Source of the DNA: Candidatus Kerfeldbacteria bacterium CG_4_10_14_0_8_um_filter_42_10 | GTDB taxonomy: Bacteria > Patescibacteriota > Patescibacteriia > UM-FILTER-42-10 | Length of the DNA stretch: 64,000 nt | NCBI GenBank assembly: GCA_002784945.1 | Contig: PFMD01000024.1 | Coordinates: forward strand, 17,858 to 81,857 | Direction of reading: 5' to 3' | Shown: one piece after another, positions 42,814-44,531 of the stretch | Layout of the letters: every line of letters starts with the position of its first letter | How positions within the stretch are numbered: position 1 is the first letter of the stretch | The notes under the pieces: generated by a model | The model's input: the letters and a program-made list of their open reading frames with translations, nothing else | Told to the model about the DNA's origin: nothing | Databases searched by the model: none | Made by a program: the position numbers and the translations under genes

Positions 42814-44154
42814 TTAGATTTTTTCCTTTAAGTAATTAACCAATTCTTCGATTTTTACCCTCTCCTGCTTCATAGTGTCTCTATCTCGGACAGTCACCGC
42901 TTTGTCTTCTAAAGAATCAAAATCCACGGTGACGCAATAGGGCGTGCCAATTTCATCCTGTCGGCGGTAGCGTTTTCCTATGGAAGCAACTTCATCGTAA
43001 GCCGCCATGAAATTGGGTTGGATTTCTTGATAAATTTCTTTAGCCACTTTTACCAGATTTTCTTTGCGGGACAAAGGCAGTACCGCCACTTTATATGGAG
43101 CCAAATCCTTATGGAGGCGCAGAACTACCTCTTCTTCTTTAATGCTTTCGGTAGTGGTGGTGCGGCCGCCCTTTACTTCGTCATAAGCATCCAGCAGAAA
43201 GGTCAAAGCGGCCCGGTCTACTCCGAATGACGGTTCTATGACGTAAGGAGTGATTTTCTGGTTTGATTCCTGATCATGGTATTCCAGCTTGTGCTGTTTC
43301 AAATCATAATCGGTTCGGTTAGCAATACCCAAAAGTTCCGCCCATCCTTTCTCTCCGCCAGAGGCGGATCCGCCTTGGGCGGAAAAAGGAAATTTGTATT
43401 CAATGTCAACCGTTTCTTTAGCGTAATGAGCCAGTTCTTTTTTCTCTTGAGGACGTTTCTTGATATTTTCTTTTTTAATACCTAAATCTAAAAACCATTG
43501 ATAGGATTGCTCCACCCAATAATCAAACCATTTTTTGTCTTCTTTCGGATCGATAAAATACTCCAGTTCCATCTGTTCAAATTCCCGCGAGCGGAATATA
43601 AAGTTGCCGGGCGTAATTTCATTGCGAAAAGCTTTGCCCACTTGAGCAATGCCAAAGGGCAGCTTTTGGCGCATGGTATCAACAATGTTTTTGAAATTGA
43701 CGAAAATCCCTTGAGCGGTTTCCGGGCGGAGGTAAGCAGCCGAAGCAGAATTTTCTACTGGGCCCACAAAAGTTTTAAACATTAAGTTGAACTCTTTTGC
43801 TTTTTCTAATTCTTTCTTACCGCAATTAGGACACTGACCATTTAAATCTTCTTCCTTAAAACGCTGATGACAACTTTTGCATTCCACCAACTTATCAGCG
43901 AATCCTTTTAAATGCCCTGAAACCTCCCAAGTTTTGGGATTCATTATAATTGCCGAATCCAACCCCACCACATCTGCCCTTTCCTGCACAAACTTTTTCC
44001 ACCACATTTTTTTGATGTTATTTTTCAACTCCACGCCCAAAGGACCGAAATCCCAAAACCCCTGAAGTCCGCCGTAAATTTCCGAGGAAGGAAAAATAAA
44101 CCCTCTTCTCTTCGATAAACTTACAATCTTTTCCATTAAATTTTGTTGAAGCAT
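42814..44154 (-). CDS. glyQS: Glycine--tRNA ligase (homodimeric class II)
   Basis: GlyRS N-terminus [23 protein letters not shown]; start set at MLQQ (track ORF extends 10 codons further, into the GIY-YIG element IR); carries the in-frame 28-nt repeat at 43355..43382. Confidence 0.9.
   Translation of the reverse strand: [446 protein letters not shown]
43355..43382. repeat. 28-nt palindromic repeat inserted in-frame in glyQS (encodes AQGGSASGG)
   Basis: Reverse complement is identical to 28011..28038 in atpA. Confidence 0.8.
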
Positions 44155-44158
44155 ATTT

Positions 44159-44443
44159 TTACTTTTTTCTACTCGTCCTCTCAACTTTTTGAGAAAACAA
44201 TTGGTTCTTTAAAGTTCTATAAATCCAATTCTTACCCCAACCAGTTTTTAAAAATTTTTCTCTTTGCGCTGCATCATGCTTATTCCGATGAGCTTCATAA
44301 TACAACAATATAAATGGATGCCTCGACTGCGTAGAAAAATTTTCACCATTATTATGTGAGTTAAACCTCTTACGTAGATCATTTGTCATACCGATATACA
44401 TATTTCCATCTTTTATACTCTGAAGTATATAGACGTACCACAT
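44159..44443 (-). CDS. GIY-YIG nuclease family protein (copy 1)
   Basis: 94 aa; WYVYIL...GNMYIGMTNDLRKRFNSHN; 65% identical over the shared region to the 47868..48083 copy. Confidence 0.75.
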   Translation of the reverse strand: MWYVYILQSIKDGNMYIGMTNDLRKRFNSHNNGENFSTQSRHPFILLYYEAHRNKHDAAQREKFLKTGWGKNWIYRTLKNQLFSQKVERTSRKK

Positions 44444-44465
44444 ATTCTCAAAAAGTTGAGAGGGT
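44177..44465 (-). mobile_element. GIY-YIG cassette bounded by 19-bp hairpin-containing inverted repeats TTCTCAAAAAGTTGAGAGG
   Basis: Left arm 44177..44195 is the reverse complement of right arm 44446..44465; right arm abuts the GIY-YIG start codon; the left arm encodes the protein C-terminus FSQKVER. Confidence 0.6.
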
Positions 44466-44531
44466 AAAACCGCGCCTCTTGGCTAAAGAGACAATTTTTT
44501 CCATTAAATTGTTTTCTTCTCTCTCGATCAT
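44448..44531 (-). pseudogene. Remnant duplicate of the glyQS 5' end ([27 protein letters not shown])
   Basis: 15-aa stretch [15 protein letters not shown] matches glyQS residues [15 protein letters not shown]; reading frame terminates inside the cassette inverted repeat. Confidence 0.55.

What the first reader, a model, noticed from the sequence alone, without database searches (positions are those of the whole stretch)
44119..44531. Second GIY-YIG cassette with 19-bp hairpin inverted repeats in the 5' end of glyQS, with a duplicated glyQS N-terminal fragment
A 94-aa GIY-YIG gene (44159..44443) is bracketed by perfect inverted 19-mers TTCTCAAAAAGTTGAGAGG at 44177..44195 and 44446..44465. Each 19-mer contains its own TCTCAA/TTGAGA hairpin. 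Just upstream at 44448..44531 is a 27-codon ORF encoding [27 protein letters not shown]. Its residues [15 protein letters not shown] match the glyQS N-terminus [15 protein letters not shown], and the frame ends inside the inverted repeat. A 22-nt direct repeat ACAAT(C/T)TTTTCCATTAAATT flanks the cassette. This pattern fits insertion of a selfish GIY-YIG element into the start of an essential aaRS gene, with gene function kept by a duplicated 5' end. That is reminiscent of free-standing homing endonuclease gene invasions in phages. The GIY-YIG protein is 65% identical to the copy at 47868..48083 but carries different inverted repeats.
Basis: seen in the sequence. Interest (0 to 1): 0.85.

Follow-up and report, generated by a model that had tools for sequence, protein, structure and literature searches.

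The report
Selfish nuclease cassette inside glyQS start
A tiny nuclease gene flanked by an inverted repeat has inserted about 20 codons into the essential glycyl-tRNA synthetase gene of a CPR bacterium, carrying a replacement start of that gene so the enzyme stays intact; this gene-end-replacement arrangement was previously described mainly in fungal mitochondria.

Summary
A 368-bp unit (44097-44464, minus strand) sits inside the 5' end of glyQS in a Candidatus Kerfeldbacteria genome.

The unit reads: 5' arm, a 94-aa minimal GIY-YIG gene (Slx1/UPF0213 type), 3' arm, a 22-nt spacer, then a replacement glyQS start. The native start and its promoter remain upstream as a 27-codon leader ORF.

- **Empty sites exist.** A relative with 82-83% identical GlyRS (L069) has the native-type start joined directly to the gene body. 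About 20 further metagenomic alleles are also uninterrupted.
- **The insertion recurs.** Four other lineages carry a homologous cassette at the same junction (GGN TTT A|CCCTC). Nuclease identity to the window reaches 78-82% where GlyRS is only 57% identical. Replacement N-termini resemble each other, while native fragments vary widely.
- **The inverted repeat is family-wide.** 43 of 50 loci have it, with compensatory changes.
- **Other targets.** Relatives sit in 23S rRNA, in or beside RNase P RNA, at tRNA-Gly, and in transketolase (also with 5'-end replacement).

My reading is a homing-type selfish cassette, probably expressed by translational relay. The closest analogue is the fungal mitochondrial mobile ORF that replaces a gene's C-terminus. 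I rate it a new variant of a known kind. What the repeat does, and how the nuclease finds its target, are unresolved.

The parts
44541..44549 (-). Probable native glyQS promoter: an extended -10 element, TGGTATAAT, 9 nt upstream of the leader ATG.
   Evidence: Read by eye. The empty allele L069 has TATAAT at the same 9-nt spacing. The consensus scan did not list this site because the -35 match is weak. This part is inferred.
44465..44531 (-). Displaced native 5' end of glyQS, coding for [22 protein letters not shown]. It now forms the start of a 27-codon leader ORF (44448-44531).
   Evidence: Uninterrupted alleles L069 and L071 join this type of start directly to the gene body.
44445..44463 (-). 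5' arm of the inverted repeat, CCTCTCAACTTTTTGAGAA. It contains the leader stop codon TGA (44450-44448), which lies 4 nt before the GIY-YIG ATG.
   Evidence: Homologous arms are present in 43 of 50 family loci.
44159..44443 (-). 94-aa minimal GIY-YIG nuclease gene of the Slx1/UPF0213 type.
   Evidence: Pfam PF01541, E = 9e-18. Matches PDB 1zg2 (E = 1.5e-5) and 1ywl. 68 homologues were found, mostly of 84-94 aa.
44177..44195 (-). 3' arm of the inverted repeat, TTCTCAAAAAGTTGAGAGG. It lies inside the C-terminal tail codons of the GIY-YIG ORF.
   Evidence: In the predicted RNA fold it pairs with the 5' arm in both the minimum-free-energy and the centroid structure.
44155..44176 (-). Spacer ACGAGTAGAAAAAAGTAAAAAT. 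It holds the last GIY-YIG codons and the stop codon TAA, 4 nt before the new glyQS ATG. It is homologous to the spacers of the other glyQS cassettes.
   Evidence: The ACGAG motif is also present in L019.
44097..44154 (-). Replacement (cargo) 5' end of glyQS, coding for [19 protein letters not shown]. It is fused in frame to the native gene body.
   Evidence: It forms a 51-nt direct repeat at 76% identity with the native fragment, and most differences are synonymous. Its closest match is the cargo end of L005, at 82% over 39 nt.
44097..44464 (-). The whole inserted unit, 368 bp, relative to a cassette-free allele.
   Evidence: Comparison of the window with the empty allele L069.
42814..44096 (-). 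Native body of glyQS (class II glycine--tRNA ligase).
   Evidence: Pfam tRNA-synt_2b plus HGTP_anticodon. 100% match to the annotated Kerfeldbacteria GlyRS, P0069.
47799..48083 (-). Second cassette of the same family, with arms TCCCGTTAGAGAAA (48065-48078) and TTTCTCTAACGGGA (47802-47815). ATGAGT occurs on both sides. The ORF is fused to the first two codons of the downstream 137-aa gene and is broken by an in-frame TAA at 47868-47870.

Best explanation
This is a homing-type selfish gene cassette.

**Structure (shown).** The mobile unit is: 5' arm, minimal GIY-YIG nuclease gene, 3' arm, spacer, replacement glyQS 5' end. It sits after the codons for ...KRRGF, at the junction GGN TTT A|. GlyRS is therefore still made as an intact protein, with a foreign-type N-terminus of 19 residues. 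The native 5' end, with its promoter, is left upstream as a short leader ORF.

**Expression (inferred).** One transcript probably starts at the native promoter. Translation would pass from leader to nuclease (TGA, 4 nt, ATG) and from nuclease to glyQS (TAA, 4 nt, ATG) by termination and reinitiation. If so, a nonsense mutation in the nuclease gene would be polar on an essential gene, which would help keep the ORF open.

**Spread (inferred).** The nuclease would cut cassette-free glyQS alleles near the insertion point. Repair would use a cassette-bearing allele as template. The recipient's own 5' end would pair with the donor's leader fragment, and the gene body with the donor's gene body. The cassette and its replacement end are copied in, and the recipient's own start becomes the new leader.

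**Inverted repeat (inferred, about 45% confident).** The two arms most likely pair in the RNA as a closing stem that folds the insert into a self-contained hairpin domain. That would explain how relatives are tolerated inside 23S rRNA, in or next to RNase P RNA, and between tRNA genes.
For: **Empty and degraded sites**
- L069 is an empty site. Its GlyRS is 82-83% identical to the window's and the downstream gene order is the same. A native-type start runs uninterrupted through ...AGGGGATTTATTTTTCC. L071 is also uninterrupted.
- Of the 30 metagenomic loci that share the target-flank pattern, none has a GIY-YIG gene upstream. Only the L001-type allele shows a scar.
- L001-L004 hold a degraded state: native fragment, a mini-hairpin (CGCCT-CTTTA-AGGCG) and a new start, with no nuclease gene.

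**Recurrence at the same junction**
- L005/L016, L031, L072 and L073 carry the cassette at the same junction and in the same frame (T-L-P/S-T/I-F-stop). Their spacers are homologous.
- Nuclease versus GlyRS amino-acid identity is 78-82% vs 57% for the window against L005, 72% vs 56% against L072, and 64% vs 60% against L031.

**The functional 5' end looks like cargo**
- Cargo N-termini are alike: [27 protein letters not shown] and MGENNIMDK.
- Native fragments differ widely: [37 protein letters not shown] and MSEVTLEK.
- Over 39 nt, the L001 fragment is closest to the intact L069 allele (85%), and the window's functional end is closest to L005's (82%).
- Differences between fragment and cargo in the window are mostly synonymous. 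They include a Ser TCT/AGT and an Arg CGC/AGA switch.

**Family context**
- Nuclease sequences cluster by target.
- Transketolase loci L018, L026, L027 and L044 show the same 5'-end replacement.

**Inverted repeat**
- It is present in 43 of 50 loci, with a loop of 237-289 nt.
- 12 of 16 consensus pairs show compensatory double changes.
- The long-range stem appears in both the minimum-free-energy and the centroid RNA fold, z = -4.3.
- Family members lie in 23S rRNA (L028, L035, L067), next to RNase P RNA (L039, L041) and at tRNA genes.
- No intron or other Rfam family was found in the region.
Against: - The protein is only the roughly 90-aa catalytic domain, with no DNA-binding domain. How it would recognise a specific target is unexplained.
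- I found no near-identical pair of strains differing only by the cassette. Recent mobility is therefore inferred, not seen.
- The replacement end stops at the same point as the native fragment. Classical double-strand-break repair usually leaves variable co-conversion tracts.
- Mismatches in the arms show no clear strand bias: 24 would be G-U pairs on the sense strand, 16 would be A-C, and 18 are other types. An RNA role for the repeat is thus not favoured over a DNA role.
- The arms were located by searching for complementarity, which inflates the pairing statistics.
- The cargo-versus-native comparison rests on only 39-57 nt.
- Transcription, translational coupling and cleavage were not tested.
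Confidence: 0.72

Rival explanations
1. The inverted repeat acts at the DNA level. The arms would be the ends of a transposon-like unit, or would form a stem-loop or cruciform in single-stranded DNA that the structure-specific, Slx1-like nuclease cuts. Mobility would then depend on structure rather than on a sequence-specific homing cut.
For: - The nuclease belongs to the Slx1/UPF0213 lineage and lacks a DNA-binding domain (PMC1564403).
- The outer core of the arms, CCCTCCCAACTTTTT, is conserved in sequence across the family and not only in pairing.
- Arm mismatches show no sense-strand G-U bias.
- ORF-less mini-hairpins occur in L001 and L085, and solo or tandem arms in L023, L030 and L060. 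These look like footprints.
- In the second window cassette the arms are flanked by ATGAGT on both sides, and tRNA-Gly loci have 12-14-nt direct repeats.
Against: - No target-site duplication of fixed length exists. The duplicated stretches are 6, 12-14 or about 57 nt, and the long ones are diverged copies.
- There is no transposase.
- Copies within one genome are few and diverged: two in this window, 58% identical, with different arms.
- Insertion sites are specific and conserved for each nuclease clade.
- A loop of about 250 nt makes cruciform extrusion from double-stranded DNA unlikely.
Confidence: 0.25
2. The insertion is ancient and no longer mobile. It would be inherited vertically, with the nuclease ORF kept open only because glyQS translation depends on it.
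For: - All sampled contigs of this organism carry the cassette.
- L001 shows decay in place.
- The window and L001 share features in both the fragment and the functional end, for example GAAAAG ATW GTA in the functional copies.
- The stop-to-start spacing suggests translational coupling.
Against: - Nuclease identity between the window and L005 (78-82%) far exceeds GlyRS identity (57%). It is also above the family background of 50-65%.
- Close relatives L069 and L071, and most sampled alleles, are empty.
- The displaced native fragments still encode an intact, conserved peptide in five lineages, which argues against long neutral decay.
Confidence: 0.15
3. The host's own glyQS 5' end was duplicated locally in tandem, and an unrelated small gene later landed between the two copies. 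Nothing was imported.
For: - Within L031 both copies share the lineage-specific residue N in KIVNL.
- The two copies in the window are 76% identical.
Against: - The junction is identical in five lineages.
- The functional N-termini and the spacers are homologous across hosts whose GlyRS is 56-60% identical.
- Differences between the copies are mostly synonymous, as expected for two genes that diverged while functional.
Confidence: 0.04

Closest known systems
Fungal mitochondrial mobile endonuclease ORFs (mORFs) that create hybrid genes, such as Allomyces macrogynus atp6 and Glomus atp6/atp9/cox2/nad3 (PMC3630166)
   Same: - An endonuclease ORF is inserted inside a conserved protein-coding gene.
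- It is co-transferred with a foreign copy of the gene's terminal segment, fused in frame to the native core.
- The native end is displaced and remains beside the insert.
- The two copies differ mainly at synonymous sites.
   Different: - The arrangement is a mirror image: the 5' end is replaced rather than the 3' end.
- The host is a bacterium (CPR) rather than a mitochondrion.
- The nuclease is a roughly 90-aa minimal Slx1/UPF0213-type domain, not a LAGLIDADG enzyme or a full-length GIY-YIG enzyme.
- The cassette is bracketed by a conserved inverted repeat.
- The displaced end keeps the promoter and start codon, and probably drives expression.
Free-standing GIY-YIG and HNH homing endonuclease genes of T4-type phages (Seg and Mob proteins; intronless homing)
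   Same: - A selfish nuclease gene sits beside or inside conserved genes, with no intron or intein.
- Presence or absence is patchy at a fixed site.
- Flanking host sequence is co-transferred.
   Different: - Phage enzymes are more than 200 aa and have a DNA-binding domain.
- They lie between genes or split them, and do not carry a replacement gene end.
- They have no flanking inverted repeat.
GIY-YIG ORFs in non-intron insertion sequences of CPR rRNA genes (PMC11270868)
   Same: These are probably the same protein family. Loci L028, L035 and L067 found here lie inside 23S rRNA genes.
   Different: [quoted passage not shown] In the passages retrieved by my term search it does not mention flanking inverted repeats (zero occurrences of that term), and I saw no mention of tRNA or RNase P RNA targets, insertions in protein genes, or gene-end replacement.
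23S rRNA intervening sequences and MITE-like elements such as Neisseria Correia elements, whose terminal repeats form RNA hairpins cut by RNase III
   Same: An insert is bounded by complementary ends and co-transcribed with host genes. Its ends are predicted to pair into a long stem.
   Different: - The element here encodes a protein.
- RNase III cleavage was not tested.
- The comparison with Correia elements rests on my own knowledge, not on a tool result.

Membership tests
GIY-YIG nuclease superfamily | GIY-YIG catalytic domain with the conserved Tyr, Tyr-x-Gly, Arg, His and Glu positions. | tested here: met
   Pfam PF01541, E = 9e-18. Y16, G18, R26, H30 and E62 are invariant across 35 homologues.
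Bacterial Slx1-like / UPF0213 (COG2827) minimal GIY-YIG proteins | Single-domain protein of about 90-100 aa with sequence similarity to the UPF0213 structures. | tested here: met
   94 aa. PDB 1zg2 (UPF0213 BH0048), E = 1.5e-5; 1ywl (EF2693), E = 7e-4.
Classical GIY-YIG homing endonucleases (I-TevI, Seg proteins) | N-terminal catalytic domain joined to a C-terminal sequence-specific DNA-binding domain. | tested here: not met
   The domain covers residues 1-67 of 94. Homologues are mostly 84-94 aa. The match to TIGR01453 scores 27 bits against a cut-off of 56 and covers only the catalytic part.
Homing elements in general | Occupied and empty alleles of one conserved site among related genomes. 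| tested here: met
   Occupied: the window, L005, L031, L072 and L073. Empty: L069, L071 and about 20 metagenomic alleles. Degraded: L001.
Homing elements in general | The encoded nuclease cleaves the empty allele at or near the insertion site. | not testable with these tools
   Needs purified protein and a target DNA.
Homing elements in general | Horizontal spread: the element is more similar between hosts than the host genes are. | tested here: met
   Nuclease 78-82% against GlyRS 57% (window vs L005), and 72% against 56% (window vs L072). This rests on few pairs.
Gene-end-replacing mobile ORFs (fungal mitochondrial mORF type) | The endonuclease ORF travels with a foreign copy of the target gene's terminal segment, and the native end is displaced. 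| tested here: met
   Cargo N-termini are alike across hosts while native fragments vary widely. The L001 fragment is 85% identical to the intact L069 allele, and the window's cargo end is 82% identical to L005's. Here the 5' end is replaced, not the 3' end.
DNA transposons, insertion sequences and MITEs | Terminal inverted repeats, a target-site duplication of fixed length, and a transposase. | tested here: not met
   An inverted repeat is present. However, there is no fixed-length duplication next to both arms, no transposase domain, and only two diverged copies in 64 kb.
Group I or group II introns and inteins as carriers of homing endonuclease genes | A ribozyme structure or an in-frame intein around the endonuclease ORF. 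| tested here: not met
   No Rfam family reached even E = 1 within the cassette. The insert is about 368 bp. GlyRS is read from its own ATG, not through the insert.
RNase III-excised intervening sequences | Complementary ends form a long stem in the transcript, and RNase III cuts that stem. | tested here: inconclusive
   The stem is predicted in the minimum-free-energy and centroid folds, and the arms covary. Cleavage and transcription were not tested, and mismatches show no strand bias.

The most novel reading that the evidence does not exclude
The cassettes may be a distinct class of mobile element, neither a classical homing endonuclease gene nor a transposon. In this reading a minimal structure-specific GIY-YIG nuclease has no sequence specificity of its own. 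Target choice would come from nucleic acid: the carried copy of the host gene end, or the arm stem, would form a branched DNA or R-loop/D-loop structure at the homologous site, and the nuclease would cut that structure. This would give the long-uncharacterised bacterial UPF0213/Slx1-like family a function. It would also explain how close relatives of one roughly 90-aa protein are found at glyQS, transketolase, tRNA-Gly, 23S rRNA and RNase P RNA.
Probability: 0.15. Interest if true: 0.9.

Novelty: new variant of a known kind. Interest (0 to 1): 0.68.

Why it matters
- **A third route into essential genes.** Besides hiding in an intron or an intein, a selfish nuclease gene can carry a spare copy of the gene's start. 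The displaced native start and promoter are then probably used for the element's own expression.
- **Hybrid housekeeping genes.** A universal marker gene such as glyQS can be a hybrid carrying a short horizontally acquired segment. Gene callers mis-start both genes here: they predicted 80 aa and 440 aa instead of 94 aa and 446 aa.
- **A role for an uncharacterised family.** The results suggest a biological role for the minimal bacterial Slx1/UPF0213-type GIY-YIG proteins, which are common in CPR genomes.
- **One family links scattered observations.** The GIY-YIG inserts already noted in CPR rRNA genes appear to belong to a family that also targets tRNA-Gly, RNase P RNA, glyQS and transketolase. 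All share a conserved flanking inverted repeat whose function can be tested.

Tried and rejected
- **Exact-sequence look-up of the 94-aa protein** found nothing. Public gene calls start at an internal Met, giving 80 aa (P0001), and that shorter sequence did work.
- **Nucleotide search for flank duplications** (blastn-short) found only the glyQS repeat and the tRNA 3'-end repeats. It missed the transketolase cases, which are visible only at the protein level and were found by reading the flanks.
- **Strand-bias test on arm mismatches.** The counts (24 G-U on the sense strand, 16 A-C, 18 other) do not separate an RNA role from a DNA role.
- **Rfam search** found no intron or known RNA in the cassette. 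The weak hits near 48090-48234 are all far below their gathering scores.
- **Promoter and terminator scan** did not list the by-eye extended -10 promoter. It found only weak promoter-like matches inside the arms and no terminator.
- **Metagenome scan with the target-flank pattern** recovered many empty alleles. It found neither a near-identical empty allele of the window's own population nor the window's own contigs.
- **A third weak tblastn hit** at 30503-30628 lies in a 459-aa ORF whose sequence looks like the ATP synthase beta subunit, so I treat it as spurious.
- **Local hairpins inside each arm as the key feature:** rejected. The RNA fold prefers the long-range stem, and the local palindrome is only partly conserved in relatives.
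- **Arms as Shine-Dalgarno site for the new glyQS start:** rejected for this locus. GAGAGG lies 22 nt upstream of the ATG. In many other loci, however, the 3' arm GGAGGGTAAA sits at Shine-Dalgarno distance from the next gene.
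Full report
**What is in the window**

All genes discussed lie on the minus strand. Reading in the direction of transcription:
- clpB ends at 44619 and is followed by a perfect 15+15-nt palindrome at 44570-44599.
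- An extended -10 element, TGGTATAAT (44549-44541), lies 9 nt before an ATG at 44531.
- That ATG opens a 27-codon ORF, [27 protein letters not shown]. Its stop TGA (44450-44448) lies inside the 5' arm, CCTCTCAACTTTTTGAGAA (44463-44445).
- Four nucleotides later the 94-aa GIY-YIG ORF starts (44443-44159).
- Its C-terminal tail contains the 3' arm, TTCTCAAAAAGTTGAGAGG (44195-44177).
- Its stop TAA lies 4 nt before the ATG at 44154 of glyQS ([29 protein letters not shown]...), which runs to 42814.

The arms are a perfect 19/19 inverted repeat. They are the only matches in the 64-kb window even with three mismatches allowed, and no shuffle reached two matches. The glyQS start and the leader share a 51-nt direct repeat at 76% identity. 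Of the eight codons that differ, six are synonymous, including Ser TCT/AGT and Arg CGC/AGA switches. This is the pattern of two copies that diverged while both were functional genes, not of a recent local duplication.

The small ORF is a GIY-YIG domain (Pfam E = 9e-18).

**Source and reality**

The GlyRS is 100% identical to the annotated protein of Candidatus Kerfeldbacteria bacterium CG_4_10_14_0_8_um_filter_42_10. The same GIY-YIG gene is on 17 contigs. In the 10 places shown, from several ENA and JGI samples, it lies directly upstream of glyQS, so the arrangement is not an assembly artefact. Public gene calls start both genes at internal Met codons, giving 80 aa and 440 aa.

- L069 has a GlyRS 82-83% identical to the window's and the same downstream genes (M16 peptidase, AI-2E transporter, a class I aaRS). 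It carries TATAAT, 9 nt, then ATGACTGAACAAAAGAGTTCGGAAAAAATGGAAAAAATCGTCTCCCTTTGCAAAAGAAGGGGATTTATTTTTCC..., with no insert.
- L071 (75% identical) is also uninterrupted.
- A metagenome scan with the conserved sequence just downstream of the insertion point returned 30 loci, about 22 distinct alleles. None has a GIY-YIG gene upstream, and nearly all are plain uninterrupted genes.
- The closest annotated relative (L001-L004, 81% identical) shows a third state. It has a native-type fragment (MTGQTNNKMEKIVSLCKRR), a short hairpin (CGCCT-CTTTA-AGGCG), a spacer and a new start ([17 protein letters not shown]), with no nuclease gene. This looks like a cassette that has lost its ORF.

**Recurrence**

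Four more lineages carry a homologous cassette at exactly the same junction:
- L005/L016, a MAG labelled Saccharibacteria;
- L031, Candidatus Doudnabacteria;
- L072 and L073, two Logan contigs.

In all of them the native fragment ends ...K-R/K-R-G-F. The sequence then runs GGN TTT A/G | CCCTCCCAAYTTTTTGA. The leader stops at that TGA, 1-5 nt before the nuclease ATG. After the 3' arm comes GGAGG-ACGAG (ACAAG in L073), a spacer and a new glyQS start.

The native fragments have very different N-terminal extensions: [37 protein letters not shown] and MSEVTLEK. The functional N-termini resemble one another: [27 protein letters not shown] and MGENNIMDK. Over the 39 comparable nucleotides, the L001 fragment is closest to the intact L069 allele (85%), and the window's functional end is closest to L005's (82%). 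Immediately after RRGF the window's gene again looks like its Kerfeldbacteria relatives ([17 protein letters not shown]) and not like the other cassette hosts (VFPGSEIYGGLANSWDY).

| Pair | Nuclease identity | GlyRS identity |
|---|---|---|
| Window vs L005 | 78-82% | 57% |
| Window vs L072 | 72% | 56% |
| Window vs L031 | 64% | 60% |

Together these results say that the functional 5' end is cargo moving with the cassette, and that the cassette has moved between distant hosts into one site.

**The wider family**

A scan of one genome per species with a profile of the protein gave 53 loci, almost all in CPR bacteria.

- **Inverted repeat.** 43 of 50 loci examined have a 12-29-nt inverted repeat at homologous positions. 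The 5' arm ends 0-20 nt before the ATG, the 3' arm overlaps the C-terminal tail codons ('KKLGG'), and the loop is 237-289 nt. The consensus is (TTnA)CCCTCCCAACTTTTTGGAT / ATCCAAAAAGTTGGGAGGG(TnAA).
- **Covariation.** RNAalifold on the arms finds 16 consensus pairs, 12 with compensatory double changes. The four inner pairs change on both sides in 11-15 sequences each. CCCTCC/GGAGGG switches to CCCGCC/GGCGGG in 9 sequences. The arms were found by a complementarity search, so these counts lean towards pairing, but the core changes lie in homologous columns.
- **Other targets.** Cassettes lie inside 23S rRNA genes (L028, L035, L067). They abut the conserved AGGAAAGTCCGG of RNase P RNA (L039, L041). 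They also sit between or beside tRNA genes. tRNA-Gly stands out: its 3' end CCCGCTCCA forms the outer part of the 5' arm, and a 12-14-nt copy of that end follows the 3' arm (L033, L037, L046, L049, L053).
- **Same architecture in another protein gene.** Four loci repeat the glyQS arrangement in a gene that I take from its N-terminal motif to be a transketolase subunit. A fragment ending in GYG or GHG (L027 ...PTRNGYG, L044 ...PTRDGYG, L026 ...ATRDGYG, L018 ...PTRNGHG) lies upstream. Downstream is a new Met... start, followed in L026 through ...ATRD (L018, L026, L027, L044).
- **Ribosome-binding site.** In many other loci the 3' arm GGAGGGTAAA sits at Shine-Dalgarno distance from the next gene's ATG.
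- **Target-specific clades.** Nuclease sequences cluster by target.
- **Footprints.** Solo or tandem arms (L023, L030, L060) and ORF-less mini-hairpins (L001, L085) suggest cycles of gain, decay and loss.

**What the protein is**

The nearest solved structures are the UPF0213 proteins BH0048 (1zg2) and EF2693 (1ywl). These belong to the bacterial Slx1-like branch, described as the minimal form of the GIY-YIG domain (PMC1564403). There is no DNA-binding domain, so the protein fails that defining feature of I-TevI/Seg-type homing endonucleases. How it selects a target is the main open question.

**How it most likely works**

- *Shown:* the anatomy, the empty, occupied and degraded alleles, the recurrence at one junction, the cargo-like behaviour of the functional 5' end, and the conserved covarying arms.
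- *Inferred: expression.* One transcript would run from the native promoter, which is nearly leaderless and has the same 9-nt spacing as in L069. No terminator-like site lies between the leader and glyQS.
- *Inferred: translation.* The stop-start pairs TGA-gaat-ATG and TAA-aaat-ATG suggest a translational relay. Neither downstream start has a nearby Shine-Dalgarno sequence.
- *Inferred: spread.* The nuclease would cut empty alleles, and repair would use a cassette-bearing allele as template, with the leader fragment as left homology and the gene body as right homology. The many synonymous differences in the cargo end could also protect the occupied allele from being cut again.
- *Inferred: role of the arms.* The RNA fold places the two arms in a long stem in both the minimum-free-energy and centroid structures (z = -4.3). 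Such a closing stem would make the insert a self-contained domain, which fits its tolerance inside rRNA, RNase P RNA and tRNA operons. However, arm mismatches show no strand bias, so a DNA-level role remains a serious rival.

**Comparison with what is known**

- The closest analogue is the mobile endonuclease ORF of fungal mitochondria. It inserts into atp6, atp9, cox2 or nad3 with a foreign C-terminal segment and displaces the native one (Allomyces, Glomus; PMC3630166). The present case is the 5' mirror image, in bacteria, with a minimal nuclease and flanking arms.
- My searches of the held library turned up no description of the arms, of the tRNA-Gly, RNase P RNA, glyQS or transketolase targets, or of 5'-end replacement.

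**Verdict**

I rate it a new variant of a known kind, with interest about 0.68.

Noticed in passing
window 47799-48083 (minus strand); arms at 48065-48078 and 47802-47815: A second cassette of the same family has different arms, TCCCGTTAGAGAAA / TTTCTCTAACGGGA. The hexamer ATGAGT lies on both sides. The nuclease ORF is fused in frame to the first two codons (Met-Ser) of the downstream 137-aa gene (47389-47802), which restarts at the duplicated ATGAGT. An in-frame TAA at 47868-47870 breaks an otherwise intact frame, so this is probably a recent pseudogene.
   Followed up: partly
window about 48117-48129 (minus strand): A solo copy of the 3'-arm type sequence (GTTTCTAACGGGG) lies about 40 nt upstream of the second cassette's 5' arm. 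It may be a remnant of an earlier cassette.
   Followed up: no
L085, about 150 to 20 nt upstream of the glyQS RRGF codons: An ORF-less mini inverted repeat of the second-cassette type (CCCCGTTAGAAATT, about 52 nt, AAATTTCTAACGGGG) sits in the 5' end of glyQS in another metagenomic lineage. The glyQS start may therefore be a repeated target for more than one arm type.
   Followed up: no
L037, L033, L046, L049 and L053 (tRNA-Gly loci): After the 3' arm these loci carry GCGGG-loop-CCCGCTCCA (L033 ends ...CCCGCTC without CCA). This is a mini-helix that copies the tRNA-Gly acceptor stem, discriminator base and CCA. tRNA-Gly is the commonest tRNA neighbour of the family, and the only aaRS target found is the glycine enzyme. 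This may be coincidence and is unexplained.
   Followed up: partly
L028, L035, L067 (23S rRNA); L039, L041 (RNase P RNA): Family members lie inside 23S rRNA genes and directly upstream of the conserved AGGAAAGTCCGG of RNase P RNA, each bounded by the arms. I assigned the host RNAs by eye from the flanking sequence, not with a covariance model.
   Followed up: partly
L005 positions 1854-2321: In the other glyQS-cassette genome, a DUF559 (Vsr-like endonuclease) gene lies directly downstream of glyQS. The GlyRS there is 505 aa and has an internal insertion.
   Followed up: no
window 44570-44599: A perfect 15+15-nt GC-rich palindrome (AGAAGGCGCGATTCG/CGAATCGCGCCTTCT) lies between clpB and the glyQS promoter. 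It is probably the clpB terminator, although the scan did not call it because it lacks a T-run.
   Followed up: no
window 44424-44451 and 44155-44184 (minus strand): The TTGAGA half of each arm scores as a -35 hexamer of a promoter-like site (10/12 and 9/12 matches). The second could drive a transcript starting near the glyQS ATG. These matches are specific to this copy and may be chance.
   Followed up: no
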